A stretch of DNA of 64,000 nucleotides from assembly GCA_041662205.1 (NCBI GenBank), contig JBAZSZ010000002.1, forward strand, positions 27,957-91,956, given 5' to 3'. Both the position numbers and the translations under genes were made by a program. The notes below the pieces were generated by a model. The model searched no databases, was not told the DNA's origin, and saw nothing but the letters and a program-made list of their open reading frames with translations. Shown piece after piece: positions 21,338-48,153 of the stretch (positions within the stretch are counted from its first letter, which is position 1; each line of letters opens with the position of its first letter). This DNA is from Minisyncoccota bacterium. GTDB lineage: Bacteria > Patescibacteriota > Minisyncoccia > Phycocordibacterales > UBA9973.

Positions 21338-22582
21338 CTATTCATATCGCATAGCCTCAACAGGATCCATTTTGGCAGCTGATTTGGCAGGAAAAACTCC
21401 AAAAGAGATTCCAATTATCGCCGAAACACTAAAGGCAAGCACAATAGCATAAAATGGCACAGAAAATGTCCACGCGAGATTTGCTCCTTTAGCAATAAGT
21501 GAAATAATAAATCCTAAAAATGATCCAAACCCTATTCCAATTATTCCTCCTAAAATAGTGACCAGCACCGCCTCTACTAAAAACTCTTTTAAAATATCCG
21601 ACTCTCTGGCTCCTAGAGCTTTTTTTAATCCGATCTCTGCTGTCCGCTCCGTCACCACCACATACATTATATTCATAATTCCAACACCACCAACTAAAAG
21701 AGAAATAGTGGCGATAGCAATAAGCAAAAAAGTAATTCCATCAAAAATGACATTAAAGGTTTCCAAGGCTTGTGCTTGCGTTTGAACAATAAAATCATCT
21801 TTAGCTGAATCATTTATATTATGATTATTTCGCAAAGCAATTTTTATTTGTTCTGCAGTTGCTTCAGCATCATTTATATCATTCAAGGCCACTATCCCGA
21901 CAGAGATATAATCAATTCCGAGCAATTTTTTCTGAGCCGTATTGAGCGGAATAAAAACAATTCCATCATTTTCAGAAAGCGCTCCCTGTGGGGCATAAAC
22001 ACCAATCACTTGAAAATTTAAAGCGCCAAGCTTAAATAATTTTCCCACAGGATCATCTTGCCCAAAAAGATCTTCAGCAATAGTAGAACCAAGTATAGCC
22101 ACTTGCGCCCCACTTGAATCTTCAGCCTTAGTAAAAAATCTTCCGGTAGAAAGTTTTGTTTTATCTATATTGAACCTATCTGCTCCGACTCCATAATATA
22201 TTGCGCTTTTTTTATTATTTCTATAAAGAGAAACAGCTTGACCGGTAATAATGCCATAACTCCCAACAACATTTTGTAATTTATTTATGCTGTCTAAATC
22301 TCTTTGTTTTAAACTGGTGATGACAACCCCGACTACCGCTCCTCCGGGTCCATCTGTCGCTTCGCTCCGTTTCTTTGTAGCAGAAGGAATATGTGTTTGA
22401 ACAAATAAAGTATTACTTCCAAGCGTAGCAACTTGAGAATCAATGAGCGAACGAAAACCAGCTCCGGTAGATAGCACTAAAACAACTGTCCCAATGCCTA
22501 TGATAATACCAAGCATTGTTAAAACAGTTCTGCCTTTATTGGCTCTCAGTGCTTTAATAGATTGTTTAAGTATTTTTATCAT
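21338..22582 (-). CDS. ABC transporter permease, FtsX/MacB family
   Basis: N-terminal TM helix, a large extracytoplasmic domain, then a C-terminal 3-TM FtsX domain. Confidence 0.8.
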   Translation of the reverse strand: MIKILKQSIKALRANKGRTVLTMLGIIIGIGTVVLVLSTGAGFRSLIDSQVATLGSNTLFVQTHIPSATKKRSEATDGPGGAVVGVVITSLKQRDLDSINKLQNVVGSYGIITGQAVSLYRNNKKSAIYYGVGADRFNIDKTKLSTGRFFTKAEDSSGAQVAILGSTIAEDLFGQDDPVGKLFKLGALNFQVIGVYAPQGALSENDGIVFIPLNTAQKKLLGIDYISVGIVALNDINDAEATAEQIKIALRNNHNINDSAKDDFIVQTQAQALETFNVIFDGITFLLIAIATISLLVGGVGIMNIMYVVVTERTAEIGLKKALGARESDILKEFLVEAVLVTILGGIIGIGFGSFLGFIISLIAKGANLAWTFSVPFYAIVLAFSVSAIIGISFGVFPAKSAAKMDPVEAMRYE

Positions 22583-22591
22583 AAATATAAT

Positions 22592-23863
22592 TTACTCATA
22601 ACGAAGCGCATCGATCGGATTCAGTCTAGAAGCTTTTAATGAAGGATAGAGACCAAAAATAACACCAGTCAAAACAGACACACCAACAGCCAAAAGAATA
22701 GAAGATATTGAAATAACAAAATCCCAATCAAAATTTAAATATTTCATAAGTACTGCCATTAAATATGAAATTATCACACCGACAATAATACCAATCATTC
22801 CGCCAATCAAAGTCACAGCTCCAGCTTCAAGTAAAAATTGCTTCATAATAACAGTGTTCGTTGCGCCTACTGCTTTTCTTAAGCCAATTTCCCGTGTTCT
22901 CTCCGCTACGGTTGCCAGCATAATATTTAAAATTCCGATACCTCCTACAACCAGAGCAATCGCCGCCATCGATGTTAAAAACAAACTAAGAGCATCAGTA
23001 ATAGTTTTTAAAATATCTACAGCTGTTGCTTGATTTCTCACAGTAAAATCAATATCATCATCAGTCAGTATGTGATGCCTTTGTTTCAATACACTCGTTA
23101 CGTCATTTATAGTTTGATCTATATTGAGAGCTGAGTCCACTTTTATATTTATTGCCTGCAAATAATGTATGCCTAAAAGCTGACCTTGCGCAACGGAAAG
23201 TGGTACAAAAATTTGATCATCTTGATCCTGAAAAAAAGCGCTACCTCTCTTTTCTATAACTCCAACAATCCTCAAGGGCACTCCGCCTGCATTTGTTTGA
23301 GAACTATTTTTAACTTTTACAACTTGTCCAATCGGATCTACTCCCGTGCCAGCAAATAAAGCATCTGCAACCTTGGAACCCAAGACTACGACTTTCGCTC
23401 CTCCCCTATTTGCTGTTTCATCAATAAATGTTCCAGAGCTCATTGTAAAATTAACCACACTGGCATATCCATAATCAGTACCGATGAAACTCGTATCTGT
23501 ACTTTTATTTTGCCAAAGTACAGTACCTGCTCCACGAACCATGGCATTCACTGCCACTGCATGTGGAACTTGAACTGATGAACGTAAAATCTCAGCATCT
23601 GACTCCACTAAAGTAGTAACGACAACACCAAAAACTTGCGCCGGTGGGCCCTTTGGATCACTTTTGCCAGGTTGAATAGAAAGAAGATTAGAACCAAGCT
23701 TATTTACTTGTCCAAGAACAAGAGACTGCGCTCCAGCACCGAGAGATATTATGATTATCACCCCTGCCACACCAATAACAATCCCAAGCATAGTCAAAAA
23801 AGATCTTCCTTTTCTAGAAAGCAGATTACGAATGGTCATTTTTATTATTGAAAAAAAATTCAT
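22592..23863 (-). CDS. ABC transporter permease, FtsX/MacB family (second copy)
   Basis: Paralogue of the adjacent permease with the same architecture. Confidence 0.8.
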   Translation of the reverse strand: MNFFSIIKMTIRNLLSRKGRSFLTMLGIVIGVAGVIIIISLGAGAQSLVLGQVNKLGSNLLSIQPGKSDPKGPPAQVFGVVVTTLVESDAEILRSSVQVPHAVAVNAMVRGAGTVLWQNKSTDTSFIGTDYGYASVVNFTMSSGTFIDETANRGGAKVVVLGSKVADALFAGTGVDPIGQVVKVKNSSQTNAGGVPLRIVGVIEKRGSAFFQDQDDQIFVPLSVAQGQLLGIHYLQAINIKVDSALNIDQTINDVTSVLKQRHHILTDDDIDFTVRNQATAVDILKTITDALSLFLTSMAAIALVVGGIGILNIMLATVAERTREIGLRKAVGATNTVIMKQFLLEAGAVTLIGGMIGIIVGVIISYLMAVLMKYLNFDWDFVISISSILLAVGVSVLTGVIFGLYPSLKASRLNPIDALRYE

Positions 23864-23864
23864 T

Positions 23865-24581
23865 CTATTTCTTTAGCTCTCCATCACCTTTTGCTATCGT
23901 TCTTTTCAAAACTTTTTCATCTCCAACAATCATTCCATCTTTAATATAAATTATTCTCTTGGCATGATTCGCAGTATCCATCTCATGAGTCACTAGAATA
24001 ATAGTATGGCCTCTATCATTTAGTTTCTGTAAAATTTCTAAAACAGCGTTCCCAGATTTTGAATCGAGGTTACCGGTAGGCTCATCGGCAAAGATAACAG
24101 CTGGATCGCAAACCAAAGCTCTCGCTATAGCCACGCGTTGTTTTTCTCCTCCAGAAATTTGATTCGTAAAATAATCCAAACGATGGGAAAGACCCACATC
24201 TGCTAAAGCTTTCTTTGATAAATTATCATGATCTTTTTTTTTACTATAAAGTAATGGTAATTTCACATTGTCTAAGACGGTAGTGCGCGCAAGCAGATTA
24301 AAGGATTGAAAAACGAAACCAATACGCTCGTTTCGTAGTTTCGCCAGATAATCTTTGTCAAAATCTTTTGTGTCCTGCCCTTCAAATTCATAAAGACCTG
24401 AGGTAGACTTGTCTAAAAAACTCAAAATATGCATGAGTGTTGATTTGCCGGATCCAGATGGGCCCATGATTGCCACAAATTCTCCTTGTTCCATACTAAA
24501 ATCAACTCCACGAAGAACGGACGTGACTATTCCCCCACTTTCGTAATCCTTTGTTAAATTTTCTATTTTTATCAAAGGCAT
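23865..24581 (-). CDS. ABC transporter ATP-binding protein (MacB/LolD-like)
   Basis: Walker [13 protein letters not shown] signature [15 protein letters not shown] and Walker [10 protein letters not shown]. Confidence 0.9.
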
Positions 24582-24598
24582 AATCTAAAATTTAAAAT

Positions 24599-26065
24599 CT
24601 ATTTTACAAAAGTTACTATCTCCTGCCCCACACTCAATCCAGATGTAATTTCCGTCAGCCCTCCATCCGCTTCAAGCCCAGTTGCTACTTCTACTTCACT
24701 ATAAGTTTTATTTTTTGGATCATTAATTACTCTAACAATATGTTTGCCATTCTTATTTATTACTGCACTATTTGGAACGACTAAAACGTTTTTTTTCTCC
24801 GCCACTTTTATCGTCATATTGTCAGTCATACCAGGTTTAATTTCTGGAATTTTTTCTAAACTGCCGGTCACTTTATAATTAACCACGCCAGAAATAATAG
24901 TTGAAGCGGGATTTATCGTAAGTACTTTAGTTATAAAATGCTTATCAGGACCAAGCGCATCAAAAGTATTATCAATAGATTGACCAGGAGCGACAGCTGC
25001 AATATCAGCTTCACTAACCAAAGCCTCAGTGTGCAACTCTCCCACATTTAGTAATTTCATCGCCACTTTTGTTGCTGATGCTAATTCTCCAACTTTTATA
25101 TCCACTTCTGTAATCGTCCCATTAGAAGGAGCAATCAGTCTAGCTTTCTTTATGTTTAAATTAATACCATCCACACTAGCTTGAGCTTGGGCTATTTGAG
25201 CATCAACTACCGAAGAACCAAAACTTCCCACATTCGCTTGCGCCACCGCGATAGCAGAATCCCGAGTCTGCAAAGCAAGCTGATAAAGGTTGTAATTTGT
25301 ATTATAGTTCGAAGCATTTTTATTAGGTATATTTATTTTAAATTCTACTCCTGCTTGTAGAGTTTTTGTTTTATCAAAAGACAAAAAAAGTCCACAGCTT
25401 CCTATGGGTCTAGAAATATCCGTCAAAAGAAAAGCTCCTTGTTCCAACCCAGAGTAATTTACAGAAATACCACTTGTTGAACCATAAGTTTTTATATTAT
25501 AAGTTCCTTCTTGATCACAAGCGTAAGTCCCAGAAACTAAAGGAGTATCCGAACCACTAAGATCACCCACCGCAACAGCAGTGAGAATTGAATTGAGAAG
25601 AGTACGATGAGCATTTGAAACTAAAATATTTTGTTCCGCAGTCACATTTGCAAGATTTTTTTTTGAAGCAAATGCGCGCTGCTCTGCAAGCACCAGACCA
25701 GCTTGTGCATTATGCAGTTGTGCTACAAGATCACTTGTGTCTTGTTCCGCTAACAACTGCCCAGCAAAAACCACATCTCCTTCTTTTACTAAAACTCTCT
25801 TAACTACACCACTCGATTGCCAACTTAAATTCAAATCCGTAGAACTCACAACTTGCCCAGTGACAAGGACCGTTTTTTCTATATCCTGCTGTTTAACTAG
25901 ATTAGTTTGAATATTATTAGTATCGGATTTTTTGCCAAAAAGAAACCAGCCTCCAAGCAATAAAAGTAATATTACCAAGGCCCATATAATCTTTTTCTTA
26001 GTAAAGAATGTTTTTATCTTCATTAAAATTTGGATCATTTTCATTTTTTTATTATATATAAACAT
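24599..26065 (-). CDS. HlyD/MacA-like periplasmic adaptor subunit
   Basis: N-terminal TM anchor, a coiled-coil hairpin and a beta-barrel C-terminus. It is the first gene of the ABC efflux operon. Confidence 0.7.
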   Translation of the reverse strand: MFIYNKKMKMIQILMKIKTFFTKKKIIWALVILLLLLGGWFLFGKKSDTNNIQTNLVKQQDIEKTVLVTGQVVSSTDLNLSWQSSGVVKRVLVKEGDVVFAGQLLAEQDTSDLVAQLHNAQAGLVLAEQRAFASKKNLANVTAEQNILVSNAHRTLLNSILTAVAVGDLSGSDTPLVSGTYACDQEGTYNIKTYGSTSGISVNYSGLEQGAFLLTDISRPIGSCGLFLSFDKTKTLQAGVEFKINIPNKNASNYNTNYNLYQLALQTRDSAIAVAQANVGSFGSSVVDAQIAQAQASVDGINLNIKKARLIAPSNGTITEVDIKVGELASATKVAMKLLNVGELHTEALVSEADIAAVAPGQSIDNTFDALGPDKHFITKVLTINPASTIISGVVNYKVTGSLEKIPEIKPGMTDNMTIKVAEKKNVLVVPNSAVINKNGKHIVRVINDPKNKTYSEVEVATGLEADGGLTEITSGLSVGQEIVTFVK

Positions 26066-26106: not shown

Positions 26107-26601
26107 ATGGAAATCTTGGAAAGATCAGATGAAAAACTAATTTGGTCTGCTTTAGAATATGAAGAGAAATATCGAACTTCAGATTGGTTTTGGGCACTCG
26201 GTGTCATCGTGGTTACGAGCTCTATCGCCTCGATTATTTTTGAAAATTATTTTTTTGCGGCGTTGATTATTCTCTCTGGAATCCTGCTCGGATTTTTCGC
26301 CATCAAGAAACCTGATACCGTTACCTATGAATTAAATAAAAAAGGATTAATCATCCGACATCGCCTTTACCCCTATGAAAATATAAAATCTTTTTGGATT
26401 CAAATCGGTGAGCACCCTGAGACGAACATCAAGCCAATACTTTTCATCCATTCAGAAAGAGCCTTTATGCCAATTCTTGCAATTCCGATAAATGAAACGA
26501 TCGTGGAAGATATCCACTCCATAATGCTTTCAAGAGATATTGCTGAAGTAGAAATGAAAGAGCACGCTTCAGAAAAAATAATGGAAGCTCTAGGGTTTTA
26601 A
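26107..26601 (+). CDS. Hypothetical membrane protein (possible bacterial PH-domain protein)
   Basis: Two TM helices followed by a small soluble domain. Confidence 0.4.
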   Translation: MEILERSDEKLIWSALEYEEKYRTSDWFWALGVIVVTSSIASIIFENYFFAALIILSGILLGFFAIKKPDTVTYELNKKGLIIRHRLYPYENIKSFWIQIGEHPETNIKPILFIHSERAFMPILAIPINETIVEDIHSIMLSRDIAEVEMKEHASEKIMEALGF

Positions 26602-26637: not shown

Positions 26638-26709
26638 GCCTTCGTCGTTCAATGGATAGGACGCAACTTTGCGGAAGTTGTGATGCAGGTTCGATTCCTG
26701 CCGAGGGCA
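26638..26709 (+). tRNA. tRNA-Arg (anticodon GCG as read; uncommon)
   Basis: Acceptor GCCTTCG/CGAGGGC, perfect 5-bp anticodon stem CAACT/AGTTG, loop TTGCGGA and a TTCGATT T-loop. Confidence 0.7.
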
Positions 26710-26930
26710 CAAAATAAATTTTTTTCTAAAAATTCAAATTTAATCACAAATTTAATAACTTTTTATAAAGATAAAGAGAAATAACTCTGCACCTTGTAAA
26801 TCTTCACCCAAACCCCATGCATTGACATTTTTGTCAAGGTATGATACAATCCTATTTGAAGAGAAGTTCTCTGTAAAAAAAATAAATAGGGTCGTAGACC
26901 CTAAAAAAATTCAAGAAAGGAGAAAATATC

Positions 26931-27800
26931 ATGAAAAAGTTGATATTTCTCGCCATCCTTGCGGTGGCAACAATGTTTTTCTCCGCGCCGGTTGGCGCGG
27001 AGGTAGACCACTGGAAAACGGGAGATGAGTGCCTGGCGGCACCAGTTACCGCCATGAACTATTTTCCAACAATCCTTAGCAAGCAAACGCCTGCTAAGGG
27101 TGAAATTGCAGGAGGGTTTCCCAGCCCCCGCTGCGTAAAAATGGACCTACCCGACAGATGGGGTGGTATAGGCTGGGTTCGCATCGGAAGTGATCGCAAA
27201 ATCATTTTCGATGAGAAAACTGGCAAGCCACTCCGGCTTGCCGAGTGTAACAACAAAATTTATGAAGTTGTTGCGCTACCCGCAGTCGCGGGTACACCAG
27301 GAGCAACAGGAGCCCCCGGACCACAAGGTCCTCAGGGTATCCCTGGTCCCCCTGGACCAGCCGGTCCTGCAGGAAGGGATGGATATGACGGTCGTGACGC
27401 AAGTTACGACCAAGAGTACGAACAACCCTCCCAAGTCCCAGCTTTTTTAGGAGGAGTTCTGGGAGGAATAGTTGGGGGTTATGTAAACCCCAACTATGGC
27501 CAGCAACAGCAGTATCGCACCGGTAGCCACCGCCGTGTTGGCGGAGGTTACCGTGGTGGCAATTATCGCCACCAACGGCAATACCAGCCGAGGCAGTCAC
27601 ACATGCGGCAGCATAATGTACGGCCGCCTCACCAACCGCAACCGCGGTTCGTCGGAGTTCCTCCAGGAGGAAGAACCGGTCCCGCCATTAACATTGGTGG
27701 CACCCCTCCTCCTTCAGGAGGAGGCGGAGGCGGCCGTGGCCCCGGTGGCAACACCGGCGGCGGAAACGGTTCCGGTGGTCGCACCGGAAACGCATTCTGA
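26931..27800 (+). CDS. Secreted collagen-like (Gly-X-Y repeat) protein with a Gly/Arg/Gln-rich low-complexity tail; GC-rich gene
   Basis: A signal peptide (MKKLIFLAILAVATMFFSAPVGA) is followed by GTPGATGAPGPQGPQGIPGPPGPAGPAGRDGYDGRD and later a GGGYRGGNYR...GGGGGGRGPGG tail. An RBS (aggag) lies upstream. Local GC is far above the window norm. Confidence 0.7.
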   Translation: MKKLIFLAILAVATMFFSAPVGAEVDHWKTGDECLAAPVTAMNYFPTILSKQTPAKGEIAGGFPSPRCVKMDLPDRWGGIGWVRIGSDRKIIFDEKTGKPLRLAECNNKIYEVVALPAVAGTPGATGAPGPQGPQGIPGPPGPAGPAGRDGYDGRDASYDQEYEQPSQVPAFLGGVLGGIVGGYVNPNYGQQQQYRTGSHRRVGGGYRGGNYRHQRQYQPRQSHMRQHNVRPPHQPQPRFVGVPPGGRTGPAINIGGTPPPSGGGGGGRGPGGNTGGGNGSGGRTGNAF

Positions 27801-27848
27801 TTTATCGATAACATTCTTCAATTTTTATTTCGAAGAATGCCATCACCT

Positions 27849-27890
27849 AGGGGAGGTTTGTGTGTTTTTATACACAAACTTCCCCTACTT
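27849..27890 (+). terminator. Long RNA hairpin downstream of the collagen-like gene
   Basis: aggggaggtttgtgtg-ttttta-tacacaaacttcccct forms a 16-bp stem. It has two G-U pairs that are only valid on the plus-strand RNA. Confidence 0.4.
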
Positions 27891-28023
27891 TCCAAAGTTA
27901 TTAATCTAGAATTTATTATCTATGATTTATAATTCCGGAAAGTAGAAATGTCGAATTTTTACTTTAAATTATAATTAAATTAGCTCTATTGACAACAAAG
28001 AGCTACTATGCTAAAATAAGAAT

Positions 28024-30027
28024 ATGAAAAATATATACACAAAATTTTTAATATTAAGTATCTTCGTGTTTTTTGGTTTTTTTAATATGGTAACTCCAGC
28101 TTCCGCCATGACTTGCGGCAGCGCCACTTTGACTGGAGACGTTATTACAGGTACCCCGCCTGCTCGTGCCCGATTTACCTATGGTACAGATTTTAATACT
28201 GTAGCAAATGGTGGAGGAACACCGACGACAGTCCAGACTTTTTTCTCAGACGGACCTATTCAGCAATTTATTTCTGGTCTAGCTGAAAATACCACTTACT
28301 ACTTTAGATTAGAAGTAACAAATAATTTTGGAACAGCACTTTTGAATATTAATAATTTTACCACTCCAAGTTGTCAGGTTCCAGTTCCACAAAATCCTAC
28401 CGTCACCATTTCCGCTAATCCTTCTTCTATTCAGGCTGGGCAAAGTTCTGTCTTGAGTTGGAGTTCTCAGAATGCGACTTCTTGTTCTATTTCTCAACTT
28501 GGAAGTGTTAGTCTCTCAGGAAGCCGAAGTGTTTCTCCAGCAAATACCACTACCTATACTATTACTTGTACCGGTTCTACGGGCTTGAGTGCTTCCGCTT
28601 CCGCTACTGTTTTTGTAAATCAAGTGCAACAGCAAAACCCTACCGTTAATATTTCCGCTAATCCTTCCACTATTCAAGCTGGACAGAGTTCTGTTCTAAC
28701 CTGGAATTCTCAAAATGCTAATTTTTGTTCTATCTCCCAGCTTGGTGGTAGTGTCGCTCTCTCTGGAAGTCAAACCGTTTCTCCTTCCTTTACCACTACC
28801 TATACTATTACTTGTACCGGTTCTACGGGCTTGAGTGCTTCCGCTTCCGCTACTGTTTTTGTAAATCAAGTGCAACAGCAACAGCCAACGGTTAATCTCT
28901 TTGCTAGTCCCGTAAATATTCAAACTGGACAAAACTCCACACTTTCTTGGAGTTCTAGCAACACTTCTTCTTGTTCCGCTTTCTGGACAGGTAGCACCGC
29001 TACGAGTGGCTCCGGTATTGTCGTACCAAACGTTACCACTACTTACAGTATTACCTGTTTCGGTACTAATGGACAGCAAGTTTCCGCTTCCGCTACTGTT
29101 TTTGTAAATCAAATACAACCAATTAATAATCGACCTACCGTAGTAGTTTTCTCTGACCAAGTCAGTGTACCTTTTAATGGATCAGCTACTATTCGCTGGA
29201 TCACCACTAATGCAACCTCTTGTTTTGCAAGCAATGGGTCTACCGGCTGGGCAGGAGTGAAAAGTATTGGCCCCGGAAGTTTCTTCACTGGATCCTTAAC
29301 AAGTACTAAAACTTATACACTTACATGTAGTAATAGTGTAGGATCTGACACTGATTCAGAAACCATAACCGTTCGCGCACAAACAATCAACAATCCAAGA
29401 CCTACTCCAACCTCCCTCGTACTCATCACTTCTTCTATTGATCGAAATCAACCAATAGTTCCTACTATTGATAACACGAGACCACGCCCAGGAGATGAAA
29501 TTAATTACACTGTAAGTTACCAAAATATCGGCACAGGATCGATTACCAATCTCAGATTGCAAGTAAATCTTCCTTTTGAAGTAGATTATCTATCTTCAAA
29601 TCCAAGCAACCCAACTATTTCTGGCAACACTTTGGTTTTCAACTTAGGTACGCTTCGAGCAAATGGCCAAGGCACAGTAACCATCAGAACACGAGTAAGA
29701 GAAAACATTCCTGCTGGAACAAACTTAAACTTCCCTGCTACTTTAAGCTATGTTGATCCTTCTGGTAATCCCCAATCAGTAAATGCAAATGTTTCCGCAC
29801 AAGTATTTAGCGCACCAGAAAATCAAATTGTCGTACCTCTCGGAGCAAATGTTTTCGGAGCTGGATTTCTTCCAACAAATATATTCGGCTGGCTCTTACT
29901 TCTTGCTCTCATACTTCTACTAGCATTTCTAGCTAAACACCTTTTTGATCAATCTTTCCGTAAAAAAACTACGGTGATTACTGATCAACCATCAGGTAAG
30001 AAAGTTACGACTACTACCTTAGAATAA
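28024..30027 (+). CDS. Large cell-surface protein with tandem ~81-aa Ig-like/DUF11-like repeats and a C-terminal TM anchor
   Basis: Signal peptide, then 3-4 repeats of NPTV.ISANPS.IQAGQSSVL.W.SQNA..CSISQLG...SVSP..TTTYTITC, then a TM helix (IFGWLLLLALILLLAFLA) and a basic tail. Confidence 0.75.
   Translation: MKNIYTKFLILSIFVFFGFFNMVTPASAMTCGSATLTGDVITGTPPARARFTYGTDFNTVANGGGTPTTVQTFFSDGPIQQFISGLAENTTYYFRLEVTNNFGTALLNINNFTTPSCQVPVPQNPTVTISANPSSIQAGQSSVLSWSSQNATSCSISQLGSVSLSGSRSVSPANTTTYTITCTGSTGLSASASATVFVNQVQQQNPTVNISANPSTIQAGQSSVLTWNSQNANFCSISQLGGSVALSGSQTVSPSFTTTYTITCTGSTGLSASASATVFVNQVQQQQPTVNLFASPVNIQTGQNSTLSWSSSNTSSCSAFWTGSTATSGSGIVVPNVTTTYSITCFGTNGQQVSASATVFVNQIQPINNRPTVVVFSDQVSVPFNGSATIRWITTNATSCFASNGSTGWAGVKSIGPGSFFTGSLTSTKTYTLTCSNSVGSDTDSETITVRAQTINNPRPTPTSLVLITSSIDRNQPIVPTIDNTRPRPGDEINYTVSYQNIGTGSITNLRLQVNLPFEVDYLSSNPSNPTISGNTLVFNLGTLRANGQGTVTIRTRVRENIPAGTNLNFPATLSYVDPSGNPQSVNANVSAQVFSAPENQIVVPLGANVFGAGFLPTNIFGWLLLLALILLLAFLAKHLFDQSFRKKTTVITDQPSGKKVTTTTLE
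28393..29125 (+). repeat. Three tandem ~246-bp coding repeats; units 1 and 2 share an identical 82-bp stretch
   Basis: ctatactattacttgtaccggttctacgggcttgagtgcttccgcttccgctactgtttttgtaaatcaagtgcaacagcaa occurs at both 28555-28636 and 28799-28880. Confidence 0.7.
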
Positions 30028-30090: not shown

Positions 30091-31356
30091 TTATTTTCTA
30101 ACAGAATAATTACCCATGGCTATCCATTTATAAGTGGTCATTTCTTTGGCTCCCATCGGACCACGAGCGTGGAGCTTGGAAGTAGCAATGCCAATCTCTG
30201 AACCAAGTCCGAATATGGCGCCATCAGAAAATCTAGTAGAAGCATTGACATACACTACCGCCGCATCCACTTCATCTAAAAATTTTTGGCAATTCTGCTT
30301 ACTCTCAGATAGAATTGCTTCCGAGTGTTTAGAGGAATATTTATTAATATGCTGGATAGCTTCGTCAACATTAGAAACAATTTTTACTGACATTTTTTGA
30401 CTTAAGAATTCCCTTCCAAAGTCTCCTATTGTCGCCTTTTTCAAAAGACTAGCCGGATAACTTTTTCTTAATATTTTAAAACTTGATAAATCAGCAAAAA
30501 TTTCTACATTCTTTTGGATTAAAAATCCAGCAAGTATTGGCAGAAATTTTTGCGCTACTTTCTGATGTACTAATAATGTATCCAAGGCATTACAAACGCT
30601 GGGACGTTGTGTTTTAGCATTAAAAACAATCTTGGCAGAAGCATCGAGCTTGGCAGATTTGTCCACAAAAGTATGACAAACTCCAGCCCCTGTTTCAATT
30701 ACCGGCACCGTAGCATTATTTCTCACAAAATTTATTAAATTAGAACTTCCACGCGGAATAATAACATCCACTAAACCTTCAGCTGAAACAATATCCAAAA
30801 CAACATCTTTTATTTTTGGATCTATAAATTGAACTACTTCAGGACTAGCCCCAGATAATACTAAAGCATTTTTTATAATTTTATGCAGAATTACACAGCT
30901 TTCTCTTGCCTCTTTCCCCCCTTTCAGAATCACCGCATTGCCAGACTTGATACAGATAGCAGCCACATCCGTGGTTACATTGGGCCTTGATTCGTAAATA
31001 ACACCGATCACTCCTATCGGCACTCTTTTTTTGCAGATCTTAAGTTCTTTATTCTCTATGTTATCGCGACAATCAAAAATTTCACCAATTGGATCTTTCA
31101 TCTTTATCAAACTTTCAATTTCTTTTGCCATACTTTCAATGCGTACATCATTCAATAAAAGACGGTCCCGCATCGGATCATTTAAAGTAATTTTTTTTAA
31201 ATCTTTCAAATTTGCTTTAATAATTAATTTTTTATTTTTACGTAATTCTTTGGCTAAATTTTTCAAAATTAAAGTTCTCTGAGCGTAGGATAAAAGACTG
31301 AATTTTTTAGAAGCTTTTTTGGCTTTATTCAATTGTTGTAATATTTTTTTATTCAT
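30091..31356 (-). CDS. proA: Gamma-glutamyl phosphate reductase
   Basis: Aldehyde dehydrogenase fold with the ProA C-terminus (VYVNASTRFSDGAIFGLGSEIGIATSKLHARGPMG). Confidence 0.9.
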   Translation of the reverse strand: MNKKILQQLNKAKKASKKFSLLSYAQRTLILKNLAKELRKNKKLIIKANLKDLKKITLNDPMRDRLLLNDVRIESMAKEIESLIKMKDPIGEIFDCRDNIENKELKICKKRVPIGVIGVIYESRPNVTTDVAAICIKSGNAVILKGGKEARESCVILHKIIKNALVLSGASPEVVQFIDPKIKDVVLDIVSAEGLVDVIIPRGSSNLINFVRNNATVPVIETGAGVCHTFVDKSAKLDASAKIVFNAKTQRPSVCNALDTLLVHQKVAQKFLPILAGFLIQKNVEIFADLSSFKILRKSYPASLLKKATIGDFGREFLSQKMSVKIVSNVDEAIQHINKYSSKHSEAILSESKQNCQKFLDEVDAAVVYVNASTRFSDGAIFGLGSEIGIATSKLHARGPMGAKEMTTYKWIAMGNYSVRK

Positions 31357-32117
31357 TATTTGTTTTGACCTAATTCCTGTGCTCTTTTGTATGCAGAGAG
31401 AACAGCTTTTGACACAATTCCGCTGAAATTTTCTTTCTGAAAAATATTCAGAGCGGCTTCTGTAGTGCCACCTTTTGAAGCAACTTTTTTTATAAGAGAA
31501 GAATAATCGCTCTCTTTACTCAAAATAGCAGCAGCTGAAAAAGTTTTTTCTACGAGTTGCTGGCTTTCATTTTTATTCAATCCAAGATTATCGCAAGCTT
31601 TTATTAAACAATCTGCTAAAAGAAAAAAATATGCTGGCCCACTACCAGAGATGGCTGTTACTTTATTTATAGTATCTTCATTTTTAACTTCAAAATTTTC
31701 TGTAATTTTATTTATGAAATTTTTAACTTTCTTTTTCTCCAAAAGAGATATACCTACCCCTCTCCAAGCCGCAATGCCATAACCCACTGAAAGTCCTAAA
31801 TTTGGCATCATTCTTATGATCTTTTTGTGACCAGAGAGATGTATGAGTTCTTTGATTGATACACCAGCCATAATTGAAATTAATATTGTTTTTTTGTTTA
31901 AATAATTTTTAATTTCCACAAAAGCTTCTTTTGCTTCTTGTGGTTTTACCGCAAAAATAATAAAATCAGATTTTTTTACTTTCTCAATAAAATTCTTTAA
32001 ATTTGGCTTATCTTTATCAATGCTAAAAACAGCAATTTTAGGATCTTTTTTAGAAATCGCTTTAGCAATAGCTTTGCCCATCGTACCAAAACCAATAATT
32101 GTTACTTTTGTACTCAT
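31356..32117 (-). CDS. proC: Pyrroline-5-carboxylate reductase
   Basis: Rossmann motif IIGFGTMGKAI and the P5CR C-terminal dimerisation domain. Confidence 0.85.
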   Translation of the reverse strand: MSTKVTIIGFGTMGKAIAKAISKKDPKIAVFSIDKDKPNLKNFIEKVKKSDFIIFAVKPQEAKEAFVEIKNYLNKKTILISIMAGVSIKELIHLSGHKKIIRMMPNLGLSVGYGIAAWRGVGISLLEKKKVKNFINKITENFEVKNEDTINKVTAISGSGPAYFFLLADCLIKACDNLGLNKNESQQLVEKTFSAAAILSKESDYSSLIKKVASKGGTTEAALNIFQKENFSGIVSKAVLSAYKRAQELGQNK

Positions 32118-32122
32118 AAAAT

Positions 32123-32881
32123 TTATTTCCTCTTTTGAGCTAAAAATCTTGTGCCTGAAAAATTTTCACTGATAGCTTTTATTATCGTTCCTCTTTTTTC
32201 CCCATTACCAACGAGTGTTTCTATTCCTTTCTTGGTAGCATAATCAACAGAGGTAATTTTGGCGCACATTCCCCCTACCCCGAGATCAGACTTTCCGACT
32301 GAACATACTGCTTTTATCTTAGCATCGATTTTACACACATTTTTTATTAATTCTGCATCCTTATTGTGATCAGGATTGTCTGTAAAAAGTCCATTTTGAT
32401 TTGTTAAAATCAAAAGCTTGTCCGCTTTTAATCCTACCGCCACCATGGCGCTCAACATATCGTTGTCATTTACTCTCAGATCTTCTCTCTTCATAACATC
32501 ATTCTCGTTTATAATTGGCAAAACTTTATGTGAGAGCATCGCTTCTATATTCAAAACAAAATTATTAAAATGCTCTTTGTTTGTAAAGTCATCACTCAAT
32601 ATAAGAATTTGACCGACAATAATTTTATATTTTTTAGCTTCATTAATATAATTATGCATTAACATCGGCTGACCGACAGATGCAGCTACTTTCTTCTGAA
32701 GTGGACTTGAAAAATTAACCAGTGGTAACCCTGTACCGATGGCACCAGAGGTCACTAAGATAATTTCATGTCCAAGTTTTAAAAGCTCAGCAATTTCTTT
32801 AATAATTTGCCTAATTCGCTCCTTTTTTAGTCCTTTTTTATCAGAAATTACTTGAGTACCGATCTTTATTACTATACGCAT
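32123..32881 (-). CDS. proB: Glutamate 5-kinase (no PUA domain)
   Basis: Amino-acid kinase fold with MRIVIKIGTQVISDKKG. Gene order is proB-proC-proA. Confidence 0.85.
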   Translation of the reverse strand: MRIVIKIGTQVISDKKGLKKERIRQIIKEIAELLKLGHEIILVTSGAIGTGLPLVNFSSPLQKKVAASVGQPMLMHNYINEAKKYKIIVGQILILSDDFTNKEHFNNFVLNIEAMLSHKVLPIINENDVMKREDLRVNDNDMLSAMVAVGLKADKLLILTNQNGLFTDNPDHNKDAELIKNVCKIDAKIKAVCSVGKSDLGVGGMCAKITSVDYATKKGIETLVGNGEKRGTIIKAISENFSGTRFLAQKRK

Positions 32882-45722: not shown

Positions 45723-45795
45723 GCGCCCGTAGCTCAGCTGGTAGAGCAGATCCCTTTTAAGGATAAGGTCGTTGGTTCGATCCCAACCGGGCGCA
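45723..45795 (+). tRNA. tRNA-Lys (anticodon TTT)
   Basis: Acceptor GCGCCCG/CGGGCGC, anticodon stem GATCC/GGATA, loop CTTTTAA and a TTCGATC T-loop. Confidence 0.9.
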
Positions 45796-45805
45796 CAGCG
45801 TTAAA

Positions 45806-45836
45806 AAAATCTGCAGTAATGCAGATTTTTTTTGGG
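45806..45836. terminator. Bidirectional terminator after tRNA-Lys
   Basis: aaaaaaatctgcagtaatgcagatttttttt. Confidence 0.6.
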
Positions 45837-45846
45837 ATTATAAATA

Positions 45847-46212
45847 CTAAGCTTTAATTCTTTCTCTTAATATCAATGACAAATCAACTCTATCACATAT
45901 CTCCATAGCTTGGGCAGCTATTTCAAGGAGAGAATTAATATCCATCGGGTCTTCATCGATTAAACGACCCGCCTCAATAGAAATTTTGTCTAATTTTTTA
46001 ATTTTTAATTCGTCTTCTGTTGTCACCTTTTCTTTAAAAGGTACTCCAAAAACGGTATTGTTTGGATATTTATCAGAAAAACTTTTTGGTTTGCCTGGTT
46101 TTTCACTTATATGGTTGAGAAACATAAAAAACGAAATATACTCATTGGGATAATCACCCCTCATAAGTTCCGCCACACCATATCTTTTACTTTCGTAGGG
46201 TTTATTTTCCAT
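45847..46212 (-). CDS. Hypothetical protein
   Basis: 121 aa with no recognisable motif. It is the first gene of the islet next to tRNA-Lys. Confidence 0.4.
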   Translation of the reverse strand: MENKPYESKRYGVAELMRGDYPNEYISFFMFLNHISEKPGKPKSFSDKYPNNTVFGVPFKEKVTTEDELKIKKLDKISIEAGRLIDEDPMDINSLLEIAAQAMEICDRVDLSLILRERIKA

Positions 46213-46424
46213 GCCTTAATTATTAATCGATTATTGCTTACTAGATAATACCAAATTTTTTCTCCTTCTGTATAGCATTCAAAAAAAATCCTGTCGCACA
46301 AACTTTCCATATACGAACAGTCGAAGAAAATAGTTATAATGTTCTCCTGTTATTCGCACAACGTAAAGAAAAACAAAACCCCGCCTAGACGAGCTTGGGG
46401 CTTTGTCTAAAACGGGGTTGATAC

Positions 46425-46739
46425 TTAAGGCAACATTAATGCGATAGCCTTATCACATACCTCCCTACTTGTGTTAAGGATATTAATATAAAATATTTCC
46501 ATTCCTTTTGTAAAATCTTTTTTTACAGTTTCATTTAGAGGAACTAGGGGTTCCTCTTTTGAATAATCGGAAGATACAGAAATTCCAATTTTCAAAAAAC
46601 AAAAGCGGATTCCCTCGGCTGTTGCTTGGGCACTGTGTTGGCTCACAAAATCGTGGAAGCCCTTATATCCCCTGGTTCCATTTTTGTGAAGACATACAAA
46701 ATACTTTTTACCGTCATACCTGATTTCAATTCGCATCAT
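46425..46739 (-). CDS. Hypothetical protein
   Basis: 104 aa in a higher-GC context. It overlaps the plsY stop by 14 nt. Confidence 0.4.
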   Translation of the reverse strand: MMRIEIRYDGKKYFVCLHKNGTRGYKGFHDFVSQHSAQATAEGIRFCFLKIGISVSSDYSKEEPLVPLNETVKKDFTKGMEIFYINILNTSREVCDKAIALMLP

Positions 46740-47472
46740 TGATCTCCTTTTGTTCTTCAGGTTCTGTTCCCGCTCTTATACGAGCGATGTTTTCTAGGTG
46801 TAAGAATGTGATAAAAATTAATGAACTGAAACCTAGAATTTTGATCTCATATCCTCCGTCAAAGATTACCGCGAGCGAGGCAATGATTAAGCAAGCGGTT
46901 AATGAACGAACAGATGACATCCTGCAAAATCGAGCCAGCGGCATGGAGCGAAATTTTTTCCCATAAAGGGCAATCAGTACATAGCAAAGCAACGCTACGA
47001 GTGTAATTTTGGGAGCTATCACCAAGAATACTCCCAGAGATGTAGCAACTGCTTTTCCTCCGCGATGCCCCATGAGCAGATAAAAAAACGGGAACGCATG
47101 GCCTATCATAGCGAGAAAGCCAGATAGAGCAACTGCCCAGAGAGGAAAATGAAAAGCGAGTGCTCCAGCTACTACCATGGCTCCTTTTGTGGCATCTAGT
47201 AAAATTGTCAGAGCTTTACCTTTTCCTCCAACTCCAGCAACTCTCCCAACATTTGTTCCGCCAGGGCTGTGACTTCCGCATCTGAAGAGATAAAAGATGC
47301 TTACCTTTTCACCGTGTTTGCGTTTGAACCACCAAACGACAATGGGCCCCCAGAGGAACGAGCCAAGTGTATAACTCACCCACCACCACAACAAAAACAA
47401 CCCCCATGAATCAGAAATCAAACGTGAGCTTTCCATCATTACTCCTTTCGTAAGGTTATGTGCAAATTGCAC
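46726..47472 (-). CDS. plsY: Glycerol-3-phosphate acyltransferase PlsY
   Basis: GSHSPGGTNVGRVAGVGGKGKALTILLDATKG...HAFPFF are PlsY signatures. There is an N-terminal extension, and GC is higher than in the surroundings. Confidence 0.75.
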   Translation of the reverse strand: MQFAHNLTKGVMMESSRLISDSWGLFLLWWWVSYTLGSFLWGPIVVWWFKRKHGEKVSIFYLFRCGSHSPGGTNVGRVAGVGGKGKALTILLDATKGAMVVAGALAFHFPLWAVALSGFLAMIGHAFPFFYLLMGHRGGKAVATSLGVFLVIAPKITLVALLCYVLIALYGKKFRSMPLARFCRMSSVRSLTACLIIASLAVIFDGGYEIKILGFSSLIFITFLHLENIARIRAGTEPEEQKEINDAN

Positions 47473-47675
47473 GGGTTTATATATGAAAAGAACTACACCT
47501 GTTTAGCATAATCTAGCAACAATGGTGGTTTTGTCAAACATTTATTTCAAGCACACTTCGACTCATTACATTCGCTCAGTGTAAACAGAAACAATGAAAG
47601 GCAGTTCACATATTGTGCTCTGCCTTTTTTTTAATTGGGAAAACAAATTGGCTATTTGCTCCCCGTCGTGATTGT

Positions 47676-48044: not shown

Positions 48045-48153
48045 TGGCGTCTCCTCTTTTTAAATTGTTTTTAGTTTCAGGAACAAATAGCCAAAAATAC
48101 TTTACTATAAAAGTACGATATTGTAAATAAATACTAGATATTCTAGGGATTAT

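What the first reader, a model, noticed from the sequence alone, without database searches (positions are those of the whole stretch)
26931..27800. A strongly GC-rich collagen-like secreted protein gene sits in an AT-rich genome
The gene has a signal peptide and about 12 Gly-X-Y triplets rich in Pro. Its C-terminal half is a Gly/Arg/Gln/Tyr low-complexity region (GGYRGGNYRHQRQYQPRQ...GGGGGGRGPGGNTGGGNGSGG). GC content here is visibly about double the window norm. GC-rich synonymous choices such as GGC and CGC are used even where AT-rich codons would do. This suggests foreign origin or a mutational hotspot. Collagen-like proteins in bacteria are typically surface adhesins, and in an episymbiotic CPR-type cell this gene would be a candidate host-attachment factor.
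Basis: partly seen in the sequence, partly recalled or inferred. Interest (0 to 1): 0.55.

Follow-up and report, generated by a model that had tools for sequence, protein, structure and literature searches.

The report
GC-rich, hairpin-rich variable surface-protein gene
This is a real gene for a secreted, collagen-stalked surface protein of a groundwater Patescibacteria bacterium; it is not a recent foreign import but sits in a conserved chromosomal slot where relatives carry very different versions, all unusually GC-rich and with synonymous codons placed so that the sequence is predicted to fold into many local hairpins.

Summary
Observation confirmed: ORF 26931-27800 (289 aa) has a signal peptide, exactly 12 Gly-X-Y triplets and a Gly/Arg/Gln/Tyr tail. 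GC is 0.57 against 0.345 for the window.

Recent foreign origin is not supported. The gene is syntenic in relatives (164-aa membrane protein, tRNA-Arg(GCG), this gene, DUF11 surface protein). There are no att repeats and no mobility genes. Every homologue is a GC outlier in its own AT-rich genome, with GC3 tracking host GC3 at a constant offset of about +0.29.

About two-thirds of the GC excess is amino-acid composition. The rest is a synonymous shift (z about 8) that stops at the CDS ends and does not follow ribosomal-protein codon preferences.

New findings:
- The slot is hypervariable. About half of 41 related loci carry a GC-rich secreted gene there, often with unrecognisably different head domains on shared stalk/anchor modules, between flanks about 80% identical.
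- Codon placement creates local hairpins: z about -11 against synonymous shuffles for this gene, mean -3.9 for 22 slot genes, -0.6 for controls.
- The roughly 95-aa head domain defines an unnamed family (135 clusters). Its model is confident (pLDDT 89) and has no Pfam, PDB or viral match.

An adhesin role is plausible from the architecture but untested.

The parts
26107..26601 (+). Conserved 164-aa membrane protein gene, the left anchor of the slot
   Evidence: 65-89% aa identity in 80 metagenome loci. 77-84% nt identity to relatives. No Pfam family.
26638..26710 (+). tRNA-Arg (anticodon GCG), conserved next to the anchor gene
   Evidence: ARAGORN and Rfam. Adjacent to the anchor in 38 of 41 non-redundant loci, in either orientation. 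No downstream repeat of its sequence.
26822..26850 (+). Near-consensus sigma-70-type promoter (TTGACA-17-TACAAT, with TG extension)
   Evidence: 11 of 12 matches. This is a consensus match only; function was not shown.
26887..26903 (+). 7-bp stem-loop in the predicted 5' UTR
   Evidence: Inverted repeat TAGGGTC-GTA-GACCCTA. A role in mRNA protection is inferred.
26917..26922 (+). Shine-Dalgarno AAGGAG, 8 nt before the ATG
   Evidence: Read from the sequence. It is predicted to pair with codons 5-8.
26931..26999 (+). Signal peptide, residues 1-23 (cleavage after VGA)
   Evidence: Sequence pattern, conserved 'SAP.SA|E' in homologues. Helix in the AF2 model. GC3 0.65.
27000..27287 (+). Head domain, residues 24-119: a beta-rich domain of an uncatalogued family (motifs DHW, MDLPDR, GRGWVRIG, LAECNN)
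   Evidence: 135 clusters at 50% identity. AF2 pLDDT 88.7, pTM 0.79, and above 90 in the full-length model. No Pfam, NCBIfam, PDB-sequence, PDB-Foldseek or BFVD match. C106 is invariant in 72 sequences. C34 and C68 are lost together in two members.
27291..27398 (+). Collagen-like stalk: 12 Gly-X-Y triplets (residues 121-156)
   Evidence: 36 of 72 family members reach Pfam Collagen at E no greater than 0.01, but the window protein does not. GC3 only 0.26 and no excess folding here.
27441..27491 (+). Gly-zipper hydrophobic segment AFLGGVLGGIVGGYV, at the position of the transmembrane helix of homologues
   Evidence: Kyte-Doolittle 1.66 over 17 residues, against 1.8-2.5 with Trp/basic flanks in homologues. 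Not predicted helical by AF2 (pLDDT below 50), so membrane anchoring of this particular protein is uncertain.
27501..27797 (+). Disordered Gly/Arg/Gln/Tyr/His/Pro tail ending in ...GPGGNTGGGNGSGGRTGNAF, the family's C-terminal 'GPGGNTGPAF'-type motif
   Evidence: pLDDT about 50. The motif recurs at the C-terminus of about 25 of 140 family members and in slot proteins with other head types. No NCBIfam sorting-signal model matches.
26931..27800 (+). Whole CDS as a GC-enriched, hairpin-rich nucleic-acid block
   Evidence: GC3 z = 8. MFE -421.5 against -321.8 +/- 9.1 kcal/mol for synonymous shuffles (z = -11). Local 90-nt folding z = -10.8 and -11.1 under two nulls. Median pair span 20 nt.
27848..27887 (+). 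18-bp stem-loop after the stop codon (terminator-like, weak U tract)
   Evidence: MFE -38.7 kcal/mol for 27795-27900, z = -7.8. The downstream intergenic region is about 80% identical in relatives, even those with unrelated slot genes.
28024..30027 (+). DUF11/CLIPPER-repeat surface protein with signal peptide and C-terminal TM, the right neighbour of the slot
   Evidence: Pfam PF01345 at 4.8e-11 and TIGR01451. Follows the slot in 21 of 41 loci. 50-77% aa identity, normal GC3, no excess folding.

Best explanation
The gene encodes a Sec-exported surface protein built as a 'lollipop'. A disulfide-containing, beta-rich head of about 95 residues belongs to an uncatalogued family. It sits on a short collagen-like stalk of 12 Gly-X-Y triplets, which would be trimeric if it forms a triple helix. 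After the stalk comes a hydrophobic segment, which is a clear transmembrane helix in most homologues and a weaker Gly-zipper here, and then a disordered Arg/Gly/Tyr-rich tail that ends in a family-specific motif.

The gene is resident in the lineage, not newly acquired. It occupies a conserved slot between a 164-aa membrane-protein gene plus tRNA-Arg(GCG) and a DUF11 surface-protein gene. In related Patescibacteria this slot holds alternative head domains on shared stalk/anchor modules, or nothing. The flanks stay about 80% identical, so the content is probably exchanged by recombination in the flanks and within shared modules.

Its high GC has two layers. One is a Gly/Pro/Ala/Arg-rich protein. 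The other is a synonymous GC shift positioned so that the sequence forms many short local hairpins, with local folding stability evened out along the CDS.

I infer that the base-paired state of this CDS is selected. The most likely target is a nuclease-resistant, long-lived transcript of a surface protein, framed by a consensus promoter, a 5' stem-loop and a strong 3' stem-loop.

Shown here: gene, family, synteny, hypervariability, the composition statistics and the predicted folding excess. Inferred: trimer formation, membrane anchoring, surface-interaction function, and RNA stability as the selected trait.
For: Gene and family:
- ORF and features.
- 20 word-based hits, then 135 clusters by exhaustive HMM search.
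- Confident head model.
- Invariant C106, with C34 and C68 lost together.

Residency:
- Synteny with flanking genes at 77-92% aa identity in L002, L008 and L004.
- Anchor plus tRNA-Arg(GCG) in 38 of 41 loci.
- Homologues are GC outliers in each host.
- GC3 against host GC3: r = 0.55, slope 1.08, intercept +0.26.
- No att repeats or mobility genes; no viral relatives.

Hypervariable slot:
- 21-22 of 41 loci carry a GC-rich signal-peptide gene there.
- Only 8 were recognised by the first head HMM, and 5 more after profile iteration. The L015/L029, L019/L021, L027, L070, L055 and L086 types were not significantly recognised.
- C-terminal modules are shared across head types.
- The CDS has no nucleotide similarity in relatives while the flanks keep about 80%.

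Composition:
- Amino-acid composition predicts GC 0.49 of the observed 0.57; GC3 z = 8.
- The GC step falls at the CDS ends: 0.39 | 0.55-0.59 | 0.37.
- Local GC3 is anticorrelated with local GC12 (-0.35 and -0.31). Controls give +0.21 and the synonymous-shuffle null gives -0.11 +/- 0.05, reached by 0 of 1000 shuffles.

Folding:
- z = -11 for this gene.
- 9 of 10 other slot genes tested have z between -3.3 and -11.4, against -2.9 to +1.5 for controls.
- The signal is also present in the globular head region.
- It is local and absent from the Gly-X-Y stretch.
- With the block-shuffle null, mean z is -3.85 against -0.63, p = 3.5e-6.
- Sense gain exceeds antisense gain in 8 of 10 genes, p = 0.02.

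Transcript frame: promoter, SD and hairpins.
Against: - All folding evidence is thermodynamic prediction; there are no structure-probing or half-life data.
- Most of the folding gain is also seen on the antisense strand (mean -41 against -54 kcal/mol). A DNA-level cause is therefore not excluded, and the RNA-sense bias is weak (p = 0.02, n = 10).
- Other GC-rich lipoprotein genes on some contigs show a weaker version (z -2.5 to -4.8). The property may belong to a wider gene class rather than to this slot.
- A few slot genes show little excess (L042, L048, L070, L084; z -0.8 to -1.3).
- The window protein's hydrophobic segment is weak and not helical in AF2.
- Twelve triplets is short for a stable bacterial collagen helix, and Pfam Collagen is not reached by this protein.
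- No expression data support abundance, and the codon bias does not resemble that of ribosomal-protein genes (r = 0.05).
Confidence: 0.55

Rival explanations
1. DNA-level explanation. The hairpin-forming, GC-rich sequence is a recombination- or mutation-promoting structure, or the footprint of one, such as template switching at quasi-palindromes. That process would both diversify the gene and create self-complementarity. This is analogous in logic to the G-run-rich vls antigenic-variation locus of AT-rich Borrelia.
For: - The slot is hypervariable between conserved flanks.
- Antisense folding gain is almost as large as sense gain.
- At least one hairpin includes non-synonymous positions: IVGGY|VNPNY is encoded by a 14-nt, 93%-complementary palindrome at 27468-27497. 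That looks like a DNA-level inverted duplication.
- The tRNA next to the slot flips orientation between relatives.
- Precedent for unusual codon-borne DNA structure in a variable surface-antigen locus: PMC3585125.
Against: - The arms are short and imperfect (10-15 nt, 80-93% complementary), more RNA-like than cruciform-like.
- Sense gain exceeds antisense gain (p = 0.02).
- Template switching does not explain the GC3 offset or the levelling of local folding energy.
- There are no silent cassettes or other copies in the 64-kb window.
- There is no strand-specific G-run excess.
Confidence: 0.2
2. GC-biased gene conversion. Frequent allelic exchange at this surface-protein locus raises GC at synonymous sites without any selection on structure.
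For: - Both C3 (0.36 against 0.16) and G3 (0.25 against 0.15) are raised.
- The locus shows cassette-like replacement.
- The offset tracks host GC3, as expected for a shifted equilibrium.
Against: - The GC step is confined to the CDS, although the conserved flanks are where exchange would have to start.
- Local GC3 falls where GC12 is high, beyond what codon-family effects give (0 of 1000 shuffles). Conversion bias would not do this.
- Conversion bias does not predict that codon placement increases pairing.
Confidence: 0.1
3. Recent horizontal acquisition from a GC-richer donor, landing next to a tRNA gene.
For: - Strong compositional outlier.
- Immediately downstream of a tRNA gene.
- Presence/absence polymorphism among relatives.
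- The neighbourhood is plastic: MacAB and proBCA blocks are absent in L002 and L008.
Against: - Same position and neighbours in relatives whose flanking proteins have diverged 10-35%.
- All versions are outliers by a constant offset that follows each host's own GC3.
- No att repeat, integrase or phage gene.
- No viral contigs carry the family.
- The GC block has no non-coding margins.
Confidence: 0.05
4. Translational selection. The gene is very highly expressed and uses the organism's optimal codons, which happen to be C-ending.
For: - In the window gene the shift is mainly NNT to NNC (AAC 82% against 18%, CAC 83% against 29%).
- Ribosomal proteins L28 and S20 rank next for NNC use.
- Consensus promoter and strong SD.
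Against: - Pooled over 22 slot genes and 11 ribosomal-protein genes, the two codon biases are uncorrelated (r = 0.05).
- Ribosomal-protein genes prefer GCT, TCT, CTT and CCA, while slot genes prefer GCC/GCG, TCC/TCG, CTC/CTG, CCC/CCG, GAG, AAG and CAG.
Confidence: 0.05

Closest known systems
Streptococcal collagen-like proteins Scl1/Scl2 (NCBIfam NF038330, NF038329)
   Same: Signal peptide, N-terminal variable globular head, collagen-like Gly-X-Y stalk and C-terminal cell anchoring. The head is the fast-evolving part. Known adhesins (my own knowledge).
   Different: - No LPXTG sortase signal.
- Matches are confined to the Gly-X-Y stretch at 17-27 bits, against cut-offs of 325-400.
- The head domain is unrelated.
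- The stalk has only 12 triplets.
- The anchor is a TM-like segment plus a tail with its own terminal motif.
Legionella collagen-like adhesin Lcl (NF046116); Bacillus exosporium BclA
   Same: Bacterial surface proteins with collagen-like repeats of variable length.
   Different: - Lcl match of 17-26 bits against a cut-off of 500.
- BclA carries its globular (C1q-like) domain at the C-terminus, whereas here the head is N-terminal (BclA architecture from my own knowledge).
- No sequence or structural relation of the head to anything in the PDB.
Phage collagen-like tail fibre proteins (PHROGs 10972, 1806 and others)
   Same: Gly-X-Y repeats; E-values of 3e-6 to 1e-4.
   Different: - Matches cover only residues about 111-167, the repeat itself.
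- The family is absent from 2.9 million viral contigs.
- The head has no match in BFVD.
- The genomic context is chromosomal housekeeping genes.
Borrelia vls antigenic-variation locus (PMC3585125)
   Same: A hypervariable surface-protein gene in an AT-rich genome whose coding sequence uses codons that are rare for the genome to carry a conserved nucleic-acid structural feature, proposed to act mechanistically.
   Different: - There the feature is strand-specific G-runs (G4) with silent donor cassettes and gene conversion.
- Here there is no G-run asymmetry and no silent copies in 64 kb.
- The feature here is local Watson-Crick hairpins plus a general GC3 rise.
Hypervariable PTD-repeat surface gene of a Gracilibacterium (PMC6851277)
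   Same: A CPR bacterium with one surface-protein gene showing exceptional nucleotide-level behaviour, interpreted as an attachment factor.
   Different: There the variation is within-population variation of synonymous 9-mer repeats with a conserved peptide repeat. Here the heads are replaced between lineages, with a GC and folding signature.

Membership tests
Bacterial collagen-like surface proteins (general architecture class) | Export signal | tested here: met
   N-terminal MKK + hydrophobic core + VGA|E, conserved across homologues; helix at residues 2-16 in AF2. No dedicated signal-peptide predictor was available.
Bacterial collagen-like surface proteins (general architecture class) | Uninterrupted Gly-X-Y repeats able to form a triple helix | tested here: inconclusive
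   12 perfect triplets. Pfam Collagen PF01391 is not reached by this protein at E no greater than 0.1, but it is reached by 36 of 72 family members. Trimer formation is not testable here.
Bacterial collagen-like surface proteins (general architecture class) | Non-collagenous globular domain flanking the repeats | tested here: met
   Head domain, residues 24-119, pLDDT 88.7, pTM 0.79.
Scl1/Scl2 (LPXTG-anchored collagen-like adhesins) | LPXTG sortase motif and a family-level HMM score | tested here: not met
   No LPXTG in the sequence. No NCBIfam hit for the window protein. Homologues score 17-27 bits against cut-offs of 325-400.
tRNA-adjacent genomic island (recent HGT) | Atypical composition next to a tRNA gene | tested here: met
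   GC 0.57 against 0.345; tRNA-Arg(GCG) lies 220 nt upstream.
tRNA-adjacent genomic island (recent HGT) | Direct repeat of the tRNA 3' end (att) and integrase or other mobility genes | tested here: not met
   No tRNA-derived repeat of 10 nt or more, and no 20-mer with 5 or fewer mismatches, in 26711-28200. The flanking genes encode a MacAB-like efflux system, proline synthesis and housekeeping functions.
tRNA-adjacent genomic island (recent HGT) | Absent from the same site in close relatives, with composition independent of the host | tested here: not met
   A GC-rich secreted gene lies at the same site in 21-22 of 41 related loci. GC3 tracks host GC3.
Diversity-generating retroelement target | Template repeat nearly identical to a variable region; reverse transcriptase nearby | tested here: not met
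   No copy longer than 21 nt of any part of the CDS elsewhere in the 64-kb window. No RT was noticed among the window ORFs that were scanned (not all ORFs were scanned). The rest of the genome was not available.
Cassette-based antigenic variation (vls or pilE type) | Silent donor cassettes and G4-forming G-runs | tested here: not met
   No silent copies in the window. G-runs at 11.5 per kb against C-runs at 16.1 per kb, so no strand bias. Only 64 kb was examined.
Head-domain family 'DHW...MDLPDR...LAECNN' (unnamed, defined here) | HMM match over the full domain of about 95 residues, with the invariant Cys | tested here: met
   The window protein is the seed. 135 clusters with E no greater than 1e-3, of which 108 have E no greater than 1e-10. 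C106 is invariant in 72 sequences.

The most novel reading that the evidence does not exclude
A clade of Patescibacteria keeps a dedicated chromosomal slot for an exchangeable surface 'head-on-a-stalk' protein. The coding sequences in it are under selection for a nucleic-acid property (GC buffered to about 0.55-0.6 and dense local hairpins) that is re-established in every head variant. This would be a gene-specific 'structured CDS' strategy, for transcript longevity or for recombinational head swapping, that has not been described for bacterial surface-protein genes.
Probability: 0.3. Interest if true: 0.75.

Novelty: new variant of a known kind. Interest (0 to 1): 0.6.

Why it matters
Patescibacteria/CPR are mostly uncultured epibionts, and their host-contact molecules are largely unknown. 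This locus offers three things:

- **A candidate contact protein.** It is a concrete, widely recurring candidate: an unnamed head-domain family with 135 clusters and a confident model that had no significant Foldseek match in the PDB or BFVD.
- **A way to track strain-level surface variation.** The slot lies between conserved flanks that could be amplified or mapped in metagenomes.
- **A caution for island detection.** It is a clean natural example in which a strong GC and codon anomaly is not horizontal transfer. The anomaly is a gene-specific property linked to predicted nucleic-acid folding.

If the folding signature is functional, it would make a testable case that synonymous sites in a bacterial surface-protein gene are selected for global transcript or DNA structure.

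Tried and rejected
- **High-expression codon adaptation.** It looked promising from the window alone (NNC preference, with L28 and S20 ranking next). It was rejected when pooled codon biases of slot genes and ribosomal-protein genes proved uncorrelated (r = 0.05).
- **Phage origin.** PHROG hits are confined to the Gly-X-Y repeat. There are no relatives on viral contigs and no BFVD structural match.
- **Known C-terminal sorting signals.** None in NCBIfam.
- **DGR or silent-cassette mechanisms.** No repeat of the CDS in the window.
- **att sites and mobility genes.** None.
- **G-quadruplex analogy to vls.** No strand-specific G-runs.
- **Hairpin covariation between the window gene and its 58%-identical homologue.** The core is retained but the result is not decisive.
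- **Translation-initiation region structure.** Only slightly more structured than in other genes (-8.7 against -6.9 kcal/mol, p = 0.015); not pursued.
- **First genome scan with the 16-sequence alignment.** It failed for lack of a conserved stretch. A tighter alignment found one GTDB genome.
- **Literature.** No report of Patescibacteria collagen-like proteins. No source names the protein.
Full report
**1. The observation**

The ORF at 26931..27800 (+) exists as described: 289 aa, ATG start. Its N-terminus (MKKLIFLAILAVATMFFSAPVGA|EVDHW) has the pattern of a Sec signal peptide. Residues 121-156 are 12 uninterrupted Gly-X-Y triplets, and the C-terminal 100 residues are the quoted Gly/Arg/Gln/Tyr/His/Pro low-complexity sequence.

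Gene GC is 0.570 against 0.342 for the rest of the window. GC3 is 0.48 against about 0.25 for the other ORFs.

Given the protein sequence and the window's own codon usage, the expected GC3 is 0.27 +/- 0.026, so z = 8.0. This is the strongest outlier among the window's ORFs of at least 100 aa.

Two refinements are needed:
- Amino-acid composition alone would give GC 0.49, so about two-thirds of the excess is not synonymous.
- The collagen stretch has only background GC3 (0.26). The synonymous excess lies in the signal peptide (0.65), the N-domain (0.50) and the tail (0.54).

**2. Is it foreign?**

In a 173-kb contig of an NCBI genome (L002) the order is RuvX, DUF5652, tRNA-Ser, 164-aa protein, tRNA-Arg(GCG), collagen-like gene, DUF11 protein, S4/pseudouridine synthase, S20, RuvA. 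This is the same order as in the window. The same holds in L008, from a GTDB genome titled 'Patescibacteria group bacterium'. Flanking proteins are 75-92% identical, but the collagen-like protein is only 51-65% identical over part of its length.

Every homologue is a GC outlier in its own AT-rich contig: 0.62 against 0.40, 0.56 against 0.37, and 0.51 against 0.36.

Across 22 such genes, GC3 follows the GC3 of neighbouring genes (r = 0.55, p = 0.008, slope 1.08, intercept +0.26, mean offset +0.29). This is a constant offset above each host, not a fixed donor composition.

The GC step coincides with the CDS ends. Mean GC is 0.39 in the 150 nt upstream, 0.55 to 0.59 inside, and 0.37 in the 150 nt downstream.

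No part of the tRNA is repeated downstream. The neighbours encode a MacAB-like efflux system, proline biosynthesis and housekeeping functions, with no integrase or phage genes. No relative lies on IMG/VR viral contigs.

Recent horizontal acquisition is therefore not supported.

**3. What the slot looks like in relatives**

I used the conserved 164-aa neighbour as an anchor, independently of the gene in question, and fetched 80 metagenome loci.

Among 41 non-redundant loci with at least 1.8 kb after the anchor:
- 38 keep tRNA-Arg(GCG) beside it, in either orientation.
- 21 have a DUF11 homologue downstream.
- 21 carry a GC-rich (at least +0.08) signal-peptide gene in the slot, or 22 counting L073, which my filter missed.
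- About 19 carry none.

Only 8 of the slot genes were recognised by the first head-domain HMM.

The others have the same layout: a signal peptide ending ...SAP.SA|, a Cys-containing head of about 100 aa, a Gly-X-Y or Pro/Thr-rich linker, a Trp-flanked transmembrane segment, and a short tail ending in GNTG.AF-, GDGNTI- or TGGAF-like motifs. Their head sequences, however, are very different.

A broader, iterated profile connects five more (L084, L053, L048, L066, L042) as distant relatives. The L015/L029, L019/L021, L027, L070, L055 and L086 types are not significantly recognised.

C-terminal modules cross head types. L029 has a different head but a Gly-zipper segment and Arg/Gly/Tyr tail like the window's. 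L021's TM and tail (...YLICKNNCGGDV...) match those of P0003, which has the window-type head.

At the nucleotide level, window against relatives gives:

| Segment | Identity |
|---|---|
| Anchor gene | 77-84% |
| Downstream intergenic region | about 80% over 130-180 nt |
| DUF11 gene | 72-83% |
| Slot CDS | mostly no detectable match |

The same holds for relatives whose anchor protein is 80-89% identical.

This is the pattern of a hypervariable cassette between conserved flanks, with module shuffling. It is not ordinary divergence, and it is not a one-off insertion.

**4. The protein**

The head (residues 24-119) defines a family with no Pfam, NCBIfam or PHROG model and no name in any source.

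An exhaustive profile search of 1.84 billion representatives finds 135 clusters, of which 108 have E no greater than 1e-10. Most members are 200-290 aa with the domain directly after a signal peptide.

About half carry at least 4 Gly-X-Y triplets, and 36 of 72 reach Pfam Collagen. About 25 of 140 end in the GPGGNTGPAF-type motif.

Cys106 (LAECNN) is the only invariant residue in 72 sequences. Cys34 and Cys68 are lost together in two members, which suggests a disulfide and hence an extracytoplasmic location. This is an inference.

In the window protein the segment at the TM position is a weaker Gly-zipper (AFLGGVLGGIVGGYV). The whole C-terminal half is predicted to be disordered, so anchoring of this particular member is uncertain.

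Weak NCBIfam matches of homologues to Lcl, Scl1 and Scl2 cover only the Gly-X-Y stretch, at 17-27 bits against cut-offs of 325-500. The protein works like an Scl-type 'lollipop' but is not a member of those families.

**5. Why is it GC-rich at synonymous sites?**

I tested four ideas.

(a) Translational selection. The window gene prefers NNC over NNT (AAC 82% against 18%), and L28 and S20 rank next. Pooled over 22 slot genes and 11 ribosomal-protein genes, however, the two biases are uncorrelated (r = 0.05). Ribosomal-protein genes prefer GCT, TCT, CTT and CCA, while slot genes move to C- and G-ending codons generally (C3 0.36 against 0.16, G3 0.25 against 0.15). Rejected.

(b) HGT. Rejected in section 2.

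(c) Biased gene conversion. This fits the raised G3 and C3 and the recombining nature of the locus. It does not fit the CDS-exact boundaries, nor the following.

(d) A nucleic-acid-level constraint.
- Within slot genes, local GC3 is anticorrelated with local GC at codon positions 1 and 2 (pooled r = -0.35; 19 of 22 genes negative). In neighbouring genes the correlation is +0.21.
- Shuffling synonymous codons within each gene gives -0.11 +/- 0.05, against -0.31 observed in the same setup (0 of 1000 shuffles reach it). So the same amino acids take AT-ending codons where positions 1 and 2 are GC-rich, and GC-ending codons where they are not.
- The CDS folds at -421.5 kcal/mol, against -321.8 +/- 9.1 for shuffles that keep the protein and the codon usage (z = -11).
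- Nine of ten other slot genes tested, including unrelated head types, give z of -3.3 to -11.4. Eight window controls give -2.9 to +1.5.
- The excess is present in the globular head region alone (z down to -8.8). It is absent from normal-GC DUF11 genes.
- It is local: median pair span 20 nt, and summed 90-nt window energies give z = -10.8.
- It is absent exactly where GC3 is at background, in the Gly-X-Y stretch. Native 90-nt windows mostly fold at about -30 to -43 kcal/mol (full range -25 to -54), while the shuffle-null window means range from -10 to -40.
- With a stricter null (shuffling only within 30-codon blocks), 22 slot genes average z = -3.85 (17 below -2). Nineteen matched controls average -0.63 (3 below -2). 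Mann-Whitney p = 3.5e-6. The window gene is the extreme at -11.1.

So the synonymous GC is placed to make hairpins.

**6. RNA or DNA?**

Sense-strand gains exceed antisense gains in 8 of 10 genes (mean -54 against -41 kcal/mol, p = 0.02). This is weak support for selection on the transcript. Most of the gain is plain Watson-Crick complementarity and would also exist in single-stranded DNA.

The gene is framed by a near-consensus promoter (11 of 12 matches, with TG), a 5' UTR stem-loop, AAGGAG, and an 18-bp 3' stem-loop (z = -7.8). That framing fits a stabilised monocistronic transcript.

One hairpin includes non-synonymous positions: IVGGY|VNPNY is a 14-nt palindrome. Its core persists in the 58%-identical homologue. 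This hints at DNA-level inverted duplication.

There is no template-repeat or silent copy of the CDS in the window and no strand-specific G-run excess. DGR- or vls-type mechanisms are therefore not supported within 64 kb.

Three other GC-rich lipoprotein genes on related contigs show a weaker folding excess (z -2.5 to -4.8). The property may extend to a class of surface-protein genes.

I favour selection for a heavily paired, long-lived transcript. I keep a DNA-structure/recombination model as the main rival.

**7. Comparison with known systems**

- **Architecture:** closest to Scl1/Scl2-type collagen-like adhesins, but not a member (no LPXTG, unrelated head).
- **Genomic behaviour:** closest to variable surface-antigen loci between conserved flanks.
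- **Codon-borne structural signature:** the nearest documented analogue I could verify is the Borrelia vls locus. There, G-rich codons that are rare for the AT-rich genome create conserved, strand-specific G-runs proposed to act through DNA structure (PMC3585125). The feature here is different: hairpins, no strand bias, and no cassettes seen.
- **CPR literature:** I found no report of collagen-like proteins in Patescibacteria. The hypervariable PTD-repeat surface gene of a Gracilibacterium is only a loose parallel (PMC6851277).

**8. Verdict**

The 'foreign origin' reading is not supported. 'Hotspot' and 'surface/attachment candidate' are partly supported.

What is really there is a member of an unnamed, widespread head-on-collagen-stalk surface-protein family. 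It occupies a conserved, hypervariable slot, and it carries a gene-specific GC and hairpin signature at synonymous sites.

All folding results are predictions, and the function is inferred from architecture and evolutionary behaviour.

Noticed in passing
window 45723-48100: A second compositional anomaly lies next to a tRNA (tRNA-Lys, 45723-45796). A PlsY-like gene at 46726-47472(-) has GC 0.45 and GC3 0.40. An unknown 122-aa ORF at 47676-48044(-) has GC3 0.48, NNC ratio 0.57 and z = 5.4. The gene content after tRNA-Lys differs from L002 and L008, so this may be a small island.
   Followed up: partly
window 26638-26710; L002 9473-9545; L004 8863-8935; L006 673-745; L008 7332-7404: tRNA-Arg(GCG) stays beside the 164-aa gene in 38 of 41 loci but is on either strand in different relatives. 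In a few loci it lies 400-620 nt away. This points to repeated local inversion or rearrangement at the slot's left edge.
   Followed up: partly
window 21338-26065 and 30091-32881: A four-gene MacAB-type efflux block (HlyD-like, ABC ATPase, two MacB/FtsX permeases) and a proline-synthesis-like block (amino-acid kinase, P5C reductase, aldehyde dehydrogenase) flank the locus in the window. Both are absent at the corresponding positions in L002 and L008. The wider neighbourhood is plastic.
   Followed up: partly
window 28024-30027: The DUF11/CLIPPER-repeat surface protein next door is also fast-evolving (50-77% aa identity, against 80-92% for housekeeping neighbours). It has its own near-consensus promoter (27989-28017). 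Its GC3 is normal (0.27) and it shows no excess folding.
   Followed up: yes
window 26919-26952: A predicted hairpin pairs the Shine-Dalgarno sequence and the first base of the start codon with codons 5-8 (GGAGAAAATATCA / TGATATTTCTC). Initiation regions of slot genes are only slightly more structured than those of other genes (-8.7 against -6.9 kcal/mol, p = 0.015).
   Followed up: partly
L034 2027-2620(-), L064 7585-8463(-), L073 7800-8729(+): Other GC-rich (0.63-0.65) lipoprotein genes with Pro/Thr-rich linkers, on related contigs, also fold more stably than their synonymous shuffles (z -2.5 to -4.8). The GC and hairpin signature may mark a wider class of surface-protein genes in these bacteria.
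   Followed up: partly
L034 804-1850, L064 6414-7418; P0011: Some slot proteins and family member P0011 end in a longer C-terminal domain of about 200 aa (...YGYS.G...W..KK / ...LQLTYWPNRKGK) instead of the TM-plus-tail module. This would be a third kind of anchor module.
   Followed up: no
window 60489-63069: DnaN-like and DnaA-like genes lie at the right end of the window, so the locus is about 35 kb from the probable replication origin region.
   Followed up: no
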